From an uncultured bacterium (GTDB lineage Bacteria > CAIJMQ01), in contig CAZNJA010000010.1 of NCBI GenBank assembly GCA_964573245.1, positions 1 through 37,775 of the forward strand: a DNA stretch of 37,775 nt. Reading direction: 5' to 3'. Shown here one piece after another: positions 24,001 through 27,000 of the stretch. A program made the position numbers. Positions within the stretch are counted from its first letter, which is position 1. Each line of letters starts with the position of its first letter.

Positions 24001-27000
24001 GTATGTTATTTAACATTAATCTCAAAAGCACAGGATTCTTATAATATTCCCTATTACAATAAAGTTAATGGGCAAAATGAAGTTATCCCCAAATATTGTA
24101 TTCTTTCTAATAAACTCTTGCCTGCTATTGGAAGAATACGGGAGAAGGTAGCAGCATATCAGGCAAATATTGATGTTTGTAGAATAGGGCTTGCTTTGAA
24201 AATTTATAAGGCAAAAAACGGAACTTATCCTGAAAAGTTAGAAAACTTAGTCCCCGAATTTTTGAGTGAAGTGCCTATTGACCCATTTAGTGGTAAAAGT
24301 CTTAAATATTCAAGTTACGGCAACAGTTTCAAACTTTACAGCATTGGTCCTAATATGCGAGACGATTTTGGAACTCCGAAAGCAAAAGAAAGTTCGGCTT
24401 ATAATGATTATGATATTGTTTGGGAATCTCGTTCTTGATTCTAGATGCCAGATACTAGATTCTAGTCACTGAATATTAAGAATTTTGTTTCTACAAGTAT
24501 CCAGCATCTAGTATCTATTGTTTCTTCTTCATATTCAACGGACAGGAATCGGAGGAAACTTCGCTTTTTTTTATATCTTGAGGAATTTCTTCGCCCATAC
24601 CATCCGCAATAAATCCGATAACGGTTAAAACTGCAACTTTTTCGCCTTCCTTTATCAATATTTTTCTAAGTAATCCGTCGTACTGGGACTCAATTTCCAA
24701 AGCTGCTTTGTCGGTCGTAATTTCAAGTAGAACTTCGCCCTTTGAGACCTTATCGCCTTCTTTTTTTAGCCATTTTTCAATCGTCGCTTCCTTAATCGTC
24801 TGCCCCAATTTAGGTATTATAATTTCCCTAATCATTTAATCATTCTCCATTAATCCATACGAATAAGCAAAACTACGATTTTACGGATATTGTATTAAGT
24901 ATTAGAAATTTTTCATTACGATAAGTCGTATCACTTCTTGAAATTATTGCTGGGATATATCATTCTGCCATCTTTTAATTTTACCGGCTCAGGCTTGTCC
25001 GAGCCGATATCGAAACCCTTTAAGAAACACAAAATCGCATCCACATTTTTAGCGTTCATCAGTCCTTCTCTCATCTTCCTATTTTTGCAAAGCCGCGCTA
25101 TTCTTGCCAAAACTTGAAGATGTGCCTTTGTTTCGCCGCTGGAACATCCTATCATAAAGATAAGATGAACCGGTTTGCCGTCCAAAGACGCAAACTCCAC
25201 CCCTGCCGAAGACCTGCCCAAGGCAACAACCAATTTCTCCACCGTATCCGAGCGCGCATGGGGTATTGCTATTCCCCCTCCGATAGCGGTGCTTTCTATC
25301 TCTTCTCTTGTTCTTATGGCGTTTATAAAAGAATCCTCGTTTTGGACCACTCCTGCCTGGCTAAATTTGGAAGCCATTTCTTTGATAACACCTTCTTTAT
25401 TATTGGAACGCAGTTCGGAAATAATCAAATCCCTGTCTATGACTTCTATAAGCATCTTTTCTCCCTTCATAACAGTCTGTTAACTTTTTAGAACCAAAGA
25501 TTATATGTATTGTGTTGATTTAATGTCAAATCTCACAACTGCAAGCAAGCGTTATTACATTTATTTGTTTTACTCTTGCTTTACGGATCTCTTTTGCGCA
25601 TTCGTTTACTGTTGAACCTGTAGTAAAAACATCGTCTAGGAGAAGAATGTTTTTATTTTCGAGAATTTCAGGGTTTTTTACTCTGAACGCATCTTTGACA
25701 TTTTTGACTCTTTGCTTAACAGAAAGAGTTGTCTGGGATGGGGTTCTTTTACATTTCATCAATCTGTCGGATAAAATCGGCACACCGATTTTTTTGCTTA
25801 TTTCGCGAGCCAAAAGTTCGGTCTGATTATAACCCCTTTTGAATTTATCGAACCGATGCATAGGAACGGGAAGGATAAAATCGATATCTTTTAAATCATC
25901 GCTTTCGGATATTTTTTTTATAAGAAACCCCGCTAAAAGTCTATCCAAATAATCGTTTTTGCCATATTTGAAAAGGTGAATCAATTTCCTAAAAACATCC
26001 TCATATATAGCGATGTGAAAAGCTCCGTCGAAAAAAAGTTTTGGTTTTTTGTTACATTTGGAACAAATATGAGAATTGGAAGGCCTTCCGCACTTTTCGC
26101 ATATGGGAGAGACAACGAATTTTATTTTTTTGAAACAATCGGCGCAGAGATATTCGTTGCCCGGTTCTTCGATGGGAAGAACCGAACCACAAACAAAGCA
26201 CTTAAGAGGATAAATAAGATTTAAGCAAAACCTGAAGTATTTGCGAATGACTTTAAACACGAAACTATCAACTTTCTTATGGTGGAGCAGACCGGGATTG
26301 AACCGGCGACTTTCCCGACGTAACGTCGGGACGCTCTCCCGAATTGACCAATAATATAATCTTGTATCCAAGTAAGAAATGAGCTGGTGGAGCAGACCGG
26401 GATTGAACCGGCGACCTCATCCATGCGAAGGATGCGCTCTCCCAGCTGAGCTACTGCCCCGATTGCGTATTCTACTTAAATGCTAAAACCGCTGTCAAAC
26501 TTTCTTGCTTGGTCTATGATAGATGCATAGAATTTCAAAAGGTGTAAATGACCTTCTCCTTACCCACCCATTTGAACAGGCGAGGATGTTGAGGTTTTGC
26601 TAGGGAGGTGTTTTCTTTTGAAGCCTGTTGGAACGTGATATCTAAAAAATTAATAGACTATTCTTAGATAAATATATGATTCCAAAACTGAAACCCCATG
26701 ATATATATCATTAGATTCGTTTCTCATCTCAGGAGAGCGCTATTCATTTTTTATTCTGAAGCTTTCGCTACATTGGAAGCTTGCGGACCCTTGTCGCCTT
26801 TGGAAATTTCGAATTCGACCTTGTCGCCTTCTCGCAATGTTTTGAACCCAGCGCCTTGAATAGCGCTGTAGTGCACGAAACAATCTTCGCTTCCGTCGTC
26901 AGGGGTAATGAACCCATACCCTTTCTTTTCGTTGAACCATTTTACTGTTCCTACTGCCATGCTTATATCACCTCCCTCTTTGCAAAAAAATACCGCAAGA

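What a model noticed while it worked through the whole genome (the two positions that open the first line are those of the whole stretch)
24515..24835. Free lipoyl domain cut from PDH E2, kept with LipA and LipB after loss of every lipoate-dependent enzyme
g00414 (106 aa) is the N-terminal lipoyl domain of the pyruvate-dehydrogenase E2 of sister families, cut free from the catalytic core. It keeps the lipoyl-lysine motif (TDKA) and has gained an invariant C-terminal CPLNxK tail. The family has lost the E2 core, E3 and glycine cleavage, yet keeps LipA and LipB, which points to a new use of protein-bound lipoate, possibly redox exchange with the tail cysteine.
Evidence so far: The short protein is in 5 of 5 family genomes (open frames 106-141 aa). 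The best match in the 4 other genomes is the N-terminus of a 370-402 aa E2, 58-64% identical. The CPLN tail is in 15 of 16 close database homologs, the other being cut short. E2 core 0 of 3 family genomes, present in G005 and G007. E3 over the cut-off 0 of 4 family genomes. E1 0 of 4 family relatives. GcvT 0 of 5 and GcvH 0 of 5 over the cut-off. LipA in 9 of 9 genomes; LipB in G000 and 5 of 5 tested. Paper search 147 was empty.
(Added by a program. Inside this text positions count along the whole contig: contig position 1 is position 1 of the stretch shown here. "Call 12" and the like, gene names such as g00115 and contig names such as C1 are that model's own, and its searches are not shown. 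The text may have been shortened before it was handed on; [...] marks where a part breaks off. The agent that wrote the report below was given it as the finding of a first reader that could run no searches.)

Follow-up and report, generated by a model that had tools for sequence, protein, structure and literature searches.

The report
Lipoate carrier from split enzyme
In one family of uncultured bacteria a pyruvate-dehydrogenase-type subunit has broken into two genes, and the small half that carries lipoic acid is still conserved although no known enzyme that loads or recycles it could be found, which hints at an unfamiliar use of this cofactor.

Summary
The gene is real (window 24515-24835, minus strand, 106 aa): an E2-type lipoyl domain with TDKA lysine, a linker and an invariant CPLNxK tail. 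One key claim is wrong: the family has not lost the E2 core. E2 is split. G004 and contig L085 encode a stand-alone 230-aa core right behind the lipoyl gene, and 10 such full-length cores were found. The split removed the E1/E3-binding domain. The core was not found in the window's genus (0 of 4). E3 was not found in 5 family genomes; E1 only in a G000 polysaccharide cluster. Glycine cleavage is missing phylum-wide. LipA and LipB are intact, this is their only lipoyl target, and dN/dS is 0.09-0.26. Free lipoyl carriers are not new: all 4 sister genomes and many Omnitrophota have an unrelated ~80-aa one, mostly beside lpd (noted earlier by this scan on other DNA). The family lacks that carrier, so this fragment probably replaced it. 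Best guess (0.4, inferred): a protein-bound dithiol shuttle recharged by thioredoxin/thioredoxin reductase, encoded in the lipA gene run. Lipoylation, partners and tail function are not shown. New variant of a known kind.

The parts
24515..24835 (-). Gene for the 106-aa free lipoyl protein (N-terminal half of a split E2)
   Evidence: covered without differences by contigs of runs X1 and X2; orthologs in 5 of 5 family genomes
24617..24826 (-). Lipoyl domain, residues 4-73
   Evidence: PF00364 E 8e-20; all-beta model, mean pLDDT 68.6; best solved relatives are E2 lipoyl domains
24707..24709 (-). Lys43 of the TDKA motif, predicted lipoylation site
   Evidence: T41-D42-K43-A44 invariant in 17 of 17 close proteins; attachment itself not shown
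24548..24580 (-). Variable linker (about residues 86-96), longer in some homologs
   Evidence: Gapped region of alignment A1; pLDDT below 50 from residue 89
24518..24547 (-). Tail S-C-P-L-N-x-K-K with Cys98 (24544-24542)
   Evidence: CPLNxK in 16 of 17 close proteins; synonymous variation in the C, P, L and K codons of 8 DNA copies; no CPL in residues 71-200 of 120 longer relatives
24931..25470 (-). Context only: upstream PTS EIIA-like gene, possibly co-transcribed in G000; not conserved (divergent hexulose-phosphate synthase/RraA gene in G001, G002, G004, L081, L082)
25500..25529 (-). Context only: 12 of 12 sigma-70 consensus promoter upstream of the EIIA-like gene
   Evidence: pattern match, not function
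14083..16888 (-). Context only: lipid A acyltransferase - GT2 - protein isoaspartate methyltransferase - small exporter run, 7.6 kb downstream on the same strand; the same run follows the free ~80-aa carrier in Omnitrophota

Best explanation
What it is (well supported, about 0.9): the lipoyl half of an E2 acyltransferase that split in the ancestor of this family (a source names a member Ca. Ratteibacteria). The split deleted the E1/E3-binding domain and left a lipoyl gene and a core gene; the window's genus then lost the core. It is the family's only lipoyl acceptor. How it works (inferred, 0.4 for the chain as a whole): LipB moves octanoate from ACP to Lys43 and LipA inserts the two sulfurs (inferred from intact motifs). 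The protein then serves as a free dithiol/disulfide shuttle, taking over the job of the ~80-aa free carrier that sister genomes and Omnitrophota keep with Lpd. With Lpd gone it is recharged from NADPH by thioredoxin reductase and thioredoxin, encoded in the same gene run as lipA. The single Cys on the flexible tail acts as a relay or mixed-disulfide handle (speculative). The final acceptor is unknown; candidates are the OsmC-like protein and the redoxin beside the class III ribonucleotide reductase.
For: Split and adjacency. E3-binding domain 0 of 5. One lipoyl domain per family genome against two (whole E2 plus free carrier) per sister genome. dN/dS 0.09-0.26 in 32 unsaturated of 36 pairs, like miaA 0.10-0.18. 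LipA and LipB motifs intact; ACP present in G000. lipA sits in a run lipA-suhB-tlpA-ccdA-trx-trxR in G000, G001 and G004; G003 has lipA-suhB-ferredoxin-like-trx-trxR; G002 has the run broken by contig ends; sisters instead have lpd-lipB-lipA. No class I disulfide reductase was found in G001, G003 or G004, which leaves TrxR. Free carriers without an E2 core exist elsewhere: 59 of 80 loci free, lpd beside 30-36 of them, E2 core 0 of 5 genomes tested. The gene lies 5-8 kb upstream of the same lpxL/GT2/pcm run in 4 of 5 family genomes. Precedent for small lipoyl proteins as electron donors: bioRxiv 10.64898/2026.10.01.755906 and PMC5384416 (passages).
Against: No lipoylation, expression, reduction or partner is shown. 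The lipA run also holds unrelated genes (hypA/B/D/E, FKBP, suhB), so nearness to trx/trxR may be chance, and the lipoyl gene is not in that run. Every precedent I read uses a lipoamide dehydrogenase. If TrxR/Trx is the donor, a lipoyl relay is redundant for acceptors that thioredoxin can reduce directly. The OsmC-like protein was not found in G000 or G004, is below all NCBIfam cut-offs, has no invariant catalytic Arg by eye, and is followed by a thioredoxin gene in 4 of 4 sisters. A pure redox role does not explain why at least 10 relatives keep an intact acyltransferase core. lipA and lipB show higher dN/dS (0.16-0.34; 0.33-0.34 against 0.17 for miaA and suhB in the closest pair). In tree 1 the origin of the free ~80-aa carriers is unresolved (very long branch).
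Confidence: 0.4

Rival explanations
1. Acyl carrier. The lipoyl half and the stand-alone core still exchange acyl groups between CoA and dihydrolipoyl-lysine, fed or drained by an enzyme not recognised as E1; the tail Cys takes the acyl group by S-to-S transfer. In the window's genus another thiol transferase or free exchange replaces the core.
For: 10 full-length cores of fixed length 228-230 aa, 67-85% identical to the G004 core, keep DHR plus D/N and the T/S-N-L-G motif. The two genes are coupled (20-base gap with a purine-rich site in G004; overlapping stop/start in L085).
Against: The core was not found in 4 of 4 genomes of the genus while the tail and LipA/LipB stay conserved. No E1 in G004. 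The lipoyl group would still need a reductant.
Confidence: 0.2
2. Sulfur, metal or export role. The two lipoyl thiols plus the tail Cys handle persulfide or bind a soft metal or arsenite, or the protein is a scaffold for making lipoate that other cells take up.
For: Three potential thiols on one small protein. LbpA shows that a stand-alone lipoyl protein can serve sulfur metabolism (PMC6067878, abstract start and passages). Runs that hold the stretch are labelled salt marsh metagenome.
Against: No HdrB/CCG domain in 5 family genomes, no sirtuin-type lipoamidase, no sulfur or metal genes beside the gene. The model does not place the tail near Lys43.
Confidence: 0.15
3. Relic in slow decay. E1, E3, the binding domain and then the core were lost in steps; the carrier and LipA/LipB are the last pieces and do little.
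For: Stepwise loss is what the genomes and tree show. lipA and lipB have the highest dN/dS of the genes measured.
Against: Synonymous sites are near saturation (dS about 0.6-3 for distant pairs) while dN/dS stays 0.09-0.26, also among core-less copies; the 16 tail-bearing homologs all keep Lys43 and the tail; three unlinked genes are kept in 5 of 5 genomes.
Confidence: 0.15
4. Ordinary complex with missed parts. E1 and E3 lie in unassembled parts of these genomes, or the G000 C45 E1 pair is the partner.
For: All genomes are incomplete (81-96%); G003 even lacks a transketolase hit. Only one core-bearing genome (G004, 84%) could be searched. G000 has an E1 alpha/beta pair.
Against: Missing one locus in all 5 genomes by chance is about 7e-6 if misses are independent (a rough figure). 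The binding domain for E1 and E3 is deleted. The C45 pair is in 1 of 5 genomes, inside a polysaccharide cluster and below the PDH cut-off.
Confidence: 0.08

Closest known systems
E2 dihydrolipoamide acetyltransferase of 2-oxoacid dehydrogenase complexes (PF00364 + PF02817 + PF00198)
   Same: Lipoyl domain 72-80% identical (G004 copy) to whole E2 proteins P0281-P0283; the stand-alone cores are 61-65% identical to P0281.
   Different: Two genes instead of one, binding domain deleted, core not found in the window's genus, E1 and E3 not found, Cys tail added. E2 forms lacking their lipoyl domain are known (Streptococcus, Mycoplasma; recalled), but there the domain moves onto E3.
Free ~76-90 aa lipoyl carrier of Omnitrophota, Hydrogenedentota and the sister Ratteibacteria genomes (uncharacterised; earlier scan note e1-366450)
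   Same: Stand-alone E2-type domain with DKA lysine, LipA and LipB kept, E2 core not found in 5 of 5 genomes tested, similar downstream gene run.
   Different: Different lineage (44-48% identity), no linker or Cys tail, and usually encoded beside lpd, lipB and lipA; here lpd is not found and the genes are scattered.
Lipoyl-dependent peroxide defence: Ohr/OsmC with lipoylated proteins and Lpd; Trichomonas H + L + OsmC; Hyphomicrobium GcvH-like protein beside osmC
   Same: Small lipoyl protein cut off from its usual pathway; an OsmC-family protein with two Cys in 7 of 9 phylum genomes.
   Different: No Lpd; OsmC-like gene unlinked, not found in G000 or G004, of the Ohr-like type, and paired with thioredoxin in the sisters.
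LbpA of the sHdr sulfur oxidation system
   Same: Stand-alone lipoate-binding protein used outside 2-oxoacid and glycine metabolism (PMC6067878).
   Different: LbpA is GcvH-like with its own ligase and hdr-like genes; this protein is E2-like, uses LipA/LipB, and no CCG-domain protein was found.
Archaeal single-domain lipoyl proteins
   Same: [quoted passage not shown]
   Different: No tail or separated core described in the passages read; the Haloferax example sits beside E1 genes (recalled).

Membership tests
Lipoyl (not biotinyl) domain | PF00364 match and DKA-type lysine turn rather than MKM | tested here: met
   E 8e-20; TDKA in 17 of 17; the biotinyl carrier AccB is a separate gene
Lipoyl (not biotinyl) domain | All-beta lipoyl fold | tested here: met
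   Model with 7 strands, mean pLDDT 68.6, pTM 0.52; best PDB sequence matches are E2 lipoyl domains
Lipoyl (not biotinyl) domain | Lipoate covalently on the lysine | not testable with these tools
   Needs mass spectrometry or an anti-lipoyl blot
E2 dihydrolipoamide acyltransferase | Catalytic core PF00198 on the same chain | tested here: not met
   Stop after residue 106 confirmed; core is a separate gene in G004 and not found in G000-G003; 77 bits or less against E2 cut-offs of 307 or more
E2 dihydrolipoamide acyltransferase | Peripheral subunit-binding domain PF02817 | tested here: not met
   0 of 5 family genomes; gap in alignment A2
2-oxoacid dehydrogenase complex | E1 and E3 in the genome | tested here: not met
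   E3 over cut-off 0 of 5; E1 alpha 1 of 5, in a polysaccharide cluster; genomes 81-96% complete
GcvH / LbpA | PF01597 domain with glycine cleavage or sHdr partners | tested here: not met
   No PF01597 hit on the protein; genome hits are AccB where inspected (G000, G003); GcvP 0 of 5, GcvT 0 of 9, CCG 0 of 5
Free ~80-aa lipoyl carrier of Omnitrophota and sisters | Descent from that family, domain only | tested here: not met
   44-48% identity against 58-68% within the sisters' carriers; much closer to whole E2; 105-122 aa with tail
Free ~80-aa lipoyl carrier of Omnitrophota and sisters | Encoded with lpd, lipB, lipA | tested here: not met
   lipA on C46, lipB on C9, gene on C10, no lpd; the sisters' own free carriers are also unlinked
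Free ~80-aa lipoyl carrier of Omnitrophota and sisters | Works like it: sole lipoyl acceptor in a genome without whole E2 | tested here: met
   for Omnitrophota E2 core 0 of 5
Ohr/OsmC lipoyl-dependent peroxidase system | OsmC-family protein with Cys pair, Glu and Arg | tested here: inconclusive
   3 of 5 family genomes, not G000; Cys pair and Glu seen, no invariant Arg by eye, below NCBIfam cut-offs
Ohr/OsmC lipoyl-dependent peroxidase system | Lipoamide dehydrogenase as reductant | tested here: not met
Mycobacterial DlaT-Lpd-AhpD-AhpC peroxidase (recalled) | AhpD/CMD adaptor | tested here: not met
   PF02627 0 of 5
GcvH-L / sirtuin / macrodomain system (recalled) | Sirtuin | tested here: not met
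   PF02146 0 of 5
GcvH-L / sirtuin / macrodomain system (recalled) | Macrodomain | not tested
   No search left for it

The most novel reading that the evidence does not exclude
A lipoate system with none of the known loading or recycling enzymes: an E2-derived carrier whose lipoyl arm and new tail cysteine are charged directly by the thioredoxin system, and which in core-bearing relatives lets a free E2 core couple acetyl-CoA thioesters to protein thiols with no E1 or E3. It would be an Lpd-independent offshoot of a wider, uncharacterised free-carrier pathway of Omnitrophota-like anaerobes.
Probability: 0.3. Interest if true: 0.75.

Novelty: new variant of a known kind. Interest (0 to 1): 0.55.

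Why it matters
Protein-bound lipoate is normally loaded by E1 or GcvP and recycled by Lpd. Here three genes that make a lipoylated protein stay under purifying selection in 1.3-1.5 Mb genomes where none of those partners was found, so an unknown reaction probably uses it. The family also preserves intermediate steps of a complex being dismantled (whole E2, split E2 without binding domain, carrier alone). The proteins are small and soluble, so the question can be tested directly in vitro, and the answer may explain the much more widespread free carrier of Omnitrophota.

Tried and rejected
Tail as a stump of the E1/E3-binding domain: position and look-alike (SPLAKK in whole E2) suggest it, but a profile of 58 such starts scored the 16 tails negative, at the 75th-99th percentile of 16,897 proline-anchored windows; not supported, not excluded. 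Tail as a DNA element: 2 other one-mismatch matches in G000, none exact, and codons vary synonymously; rejected, though the Ser codon is TCC in 7 of 7. Homodimer fold job: no answer, score 0.00, no evidence either way. No RNA holder listed. Profile search of 1.84 billion representatives: the best 150 were mostly longer multi-domain proteins and none carried CPLN. AhpD, HdrB/CCG, sirtuin, GcvP, GcvT: none found. CoA-disulfide-reductase-like flavoprotein as E3 substitute: only 2 of 5 family genomes. Upstream hexulose-phosphate synthase/RraA gene as partner: divergent and not beside the gene in G000 or L085. Foreign origin of lipA/lipB: 41-48% identity to the sisters equals that of lpxL (44-47%), so no sign; no tree built. 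Weak LplA-B_cat hits below cut-off were not inspected. Paper searches: 'Ratteibacteria' 10 papers, listing only; 'unattached lipoyl domain' 0; Omnitrophota + lipo + dihydrolipo 0; searches listed nothing on this system; PMC3235422 passages had no mention of lipoyl; the Feeney 2011 paper is not held. No supplements were read; tables there could list such proteins. Earlier scan findings by sequence and by place: none.
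Full report
1. The observation. Window 24515-24835 (minus) encodes a 106-aa protein with a Biotin_lipoyl domain at residues 4-73 (E 8e-20). Contigs of runs X1 and X2 cover the gene and its stop with no differences (one may be the source sample). A search of proteins of 58-186 aa gave 103 hits among 106 candidates; 17 form a close group (query included, 64% identity or more). 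All 17 keep T41-D42-K43-A44 and 16 end in C-P-L-N-x-K; the 17th stops at 89 aa. A source names one member a 'lipoyl domain-containing protein' of Ca. Ratteibacteria. The AlphaFold model gives the beta-sheet domain (mean pLDDT 68.6) and leaves residues 89-106 below 50. The phylum holds 9 genomes here: G000-G003 (one genus), G004 (same family), G005-G008 (two sister families). The short gene is in 5 of 5 family genomes.

2. The correction: E2 is split, not simply lost. In G004 a 230-aa gene starts 20 bases after the stop of the short gene and matches the E2 core PF00198 at E 3e-74. Contig L085 shows the same pair with overlapping stop and start; only 39 residues of the core are on the contig. 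A search with the G004 core gave 11 hits at E 1e-60 or better among 432 candidates: 10 proteins of 228-230 aa with the same start, and one partial whose cluster holds a 230-aa member. Two of them share their exact contig lengths (62,264 and 39,867) with tail-bearing lipoyl proteins, so they are probably neighbours too (inferred; contigs not seen). The cores keep DHR followed by D or N, and T/S-N-L-G (roles of these motifs recalled). Against whole E2, what is gone is the E1/E3-binding domain (PF02817 0 of 5). The core was not found in G000-G003 (0 of 4), nor beside the gene on contigs L081-L083. In a tree of 46 domains (89 columns, few for so many rows) one branch with support 99/99 puts all 6 copies known to lack an adjacent core, plus 6 of unknown state, apart from the core-bearing copies and the whole E2 proteins; the four distant ~80-aa carriers fall on that side too, on a very long branch, and I did not test this further. 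This fits one split in the family ancestor and one later loss of the core. The closest whole E2 proteins are P0281-P0283 (72-80% to the G004 domain; P0281 61-65% to the cores) and the L086 group, not those of the sister genomes. None of the 120 longer relatives listed has CPL in residues 71-200.

3. Partners. E1 alpha: 4 of 4 sisters, over the PDH cut-off where scanned (G005); in the family only G000 C45, in a polysaccharide cluster and below the cut-off. The other hits are 647-664 aa transketolase-size proteins. E3 over cut-off: 4 of 4 sisters, 0 of 5 family. Class I disulfide reductases: 2 of 5 family genomes, CoA-disulfide-reductase-like where scanned (G002). GcvP 0 of 5, GcvT 0 of 9, GcvH hits are AccB where inspected, so glycine cleavage is missing across the phylum. 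LipA 9 of 9 and LipB 9 of 9, a few cut by contig ends; both cluster motifs and the RSS motif of LipA, and the Lys and Cys motifs of LipB, are present wherever the sequence is held. G000 has an ACP (motif scan). Each family genome has one lipoyl-type domain, this one. Completeness is 81-96% and only one core-bearing genome could be searched, so these are 'not found', not proven absences.

4. Is it maintained? Nei-Gojobori dN/dS for 9 DNA copies is 0.09-0.26 in 32 of 36 pairs (4 saturated), also among core-less copies, against 0.10-0.18 for miaA, 0.08-0.21 for suhB and 0.06-0.17 for trxR. lipA gives 0.16-0.34 and lipB 0.18-0.33; the top values come from the close pair G001-G002, where miaA and suhB give 0.17. 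So the carrier is under ordinary purifying selection and lipA/lipB may be slightly relaxed. In 8 copies the tail's C, P, L and K codons vary only synonymously (one K to R), which points to protein-level constraint. The tail resembles the start of the deleted binding domain, but my profile test did not support that origin.

5. Each of the 4 sister genomes has a second, free ~80-aa lipoyl domain beside its whole E2; no family genome has it. A scan of species genomes kept the best 80 of 137 loci; 59 of the 80 are free domains, mostly in records titled Omnitrophota, Hydrogenedentota or Planctomycetia. Neighbours within 5 kb: lpd 30 (strict score) to 36, lipA 32, lipB 25, lipid A acyltransferase 26, GT2 24, pcm 18 of 59, typically icd-mdh-lpd-lipB-lipA-carrier-GT28-lpxL-GT2-pcm. 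In 5 such genomes that I picked, no E2 core was found (completeness not given) and OsmC was in 3. The window gene lies 7.6 kb upstream of lpxL-GT2-pcm on the same strand; G001, G002 and G004 are similar (5-8 kb), G003 cannot be judged. I read this as replacement: the E2 fragment took the job of the older carrier (inferred).

6. Mechanism. In the sisters lipA lies with lpd and lipB (G005 broken by contig ends). In the family it lies in hyp genes-(nrdG2)-lipA-suhB-tlpA-ccdA-trx-trxR, mostly with short gaps. TrxR is the only disulfide reductase seen in all five genomes. Thioredoxin and lipoamide exchange electrons in vitro and have close potentials (recalled, no paper read). So the likeliest circuit is NADPH, TrxR, Trx, lipoyl carrier, acceptor, with Cys98 as a handle. 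Candidate acceptors: an OsmC-family protein (3 of 5 family, 4 of 4 sisters), since Ohr/OsmC enzymes use dihydrolipoamide (PMC5384416, passages) and a GcvH-like protein is proposed to feed OsmC in Hyphomicrobium (bioRxiv 10.64898/2026.10.01.755906, passages); and the CxxC redoxin behind a class III reductase with a CCRL motif (8 of 9 genomes), a motif tied to a protein reductant in Thermotoga (PMC4493059, passages). Against: the OsmC-like gene was not found in G000 or G004 (two or more misses among five expected about 9% of the time), lacks an invariant Arg and is followed by trx in 4 of 4 sisters; thioredoxin could reduce the redoxin directly; the lipA run holds unrelated genes; and a redox role leaves the conserved cores unexplained. 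Shown: anatomy, split, distribution, selection. Inferred: lipoylation, replacement, redox role. Speculative: donor, acceptor, tail function. Confidence 0.4; rivals acyl carrier 0.2, sulfur/metal/export 0.15, relic 0.15, missed partners 0.08.

7. Comparison and verdict. It is a lipoyl domain but not an E2, GcvH or LbpA, and not a member of the ~80-aa carrier family, though it probably works like that family. Stand-alone lipoyl proteins are known (PMC3904984 passages; PMC6067878 abstract start and passages). I found no description of a split E2 with a free core and a Cys-tailed carrier, nor of a lipoyl system lacking Lpd, in searches of an open-access library that misses most subscription papers; no supplements were read.

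Noticed in passing
G000 C19:11091-17500: A 1279-aa ORF that looks like Cas12a, followed by cas4-, cas1- and cas2-like genes and an array of about 10 repeats of type V-A appearance (by eye; not scanned against families).
   Followed up: no
G000 C45:8204-10220: E1 alpha/beta pair inside a polysaccharide biosynthesis cluster, found in none of the other 4 family genomes, below the PDH cut-off; may modify a sugar.
   Followed up: partly
L234, L255, L272, L273, L299 and many of L228-L307: Omnitrophota-titled records carry icd-mdh-lpd-lipB-(lipA)-free lipoyl carrier; no E2 core found in 5 of 5 genomes tested. Function unknown; a larger target than this finding.
   Followed up: partly
L172, L173, L086, L087: The E1 genes of sisters and near relatives follow a Zn-dependent dehydrogenase and, in some, a mannitol-1-phosphate-dehydrogenase-like gene, so the ancestral complex may not act on pyruvate despite passing the PDH cut-off.
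   Followed up: no
L308-L315: Class III ribonucleotide reductase with a CCRL motif, between nrdR and a 77-92 aa CxxC redoxin, in 8 of 9 genomes; the G000 copy is in two pieces at a contig start.
   Followed up: partly
L184-L187: Family LipB has a variable insertion of about 25-30 residues that sister LipB lacks; G003 has INSCG instead of INPCG.
   Followed up: no
L160, L162, L163, L164: The thioredoxin in the lipA run has WCGAC in G001-G004 and WCGPC in G000.
   Followed up: no
G000 C43:4978-6331: CoA-disulfide-reductase-like flavoprotein gene in two frames around a run of N, probably an assembly gap.
   Followed up: partly
window 22111-24438: ECF sigma factor, a 147-aa unknown and a 447-aa protein with a weak T2SS-G match, convergent on the lipoyl gene; the 447-aa gene faces it in most family loci.
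   Followed up: no
window 25500-25529 and 26385-26460: A perfect sigma-70 consensus promoter and a tRNA-Ala gene upstream of the region.
   Followed up: no
window 24545-24547: The Ser codon before the tail Cys is TCC in 7 of 7 copies that have Ser, whereas 0 of 17 comparable columns in the domain are codon-invariant; unexplained.
   Followed up: partly
G005 C80:5073-6438: The sister lpd gene is in two frames, possibly an assembly error.
   Followed up: no
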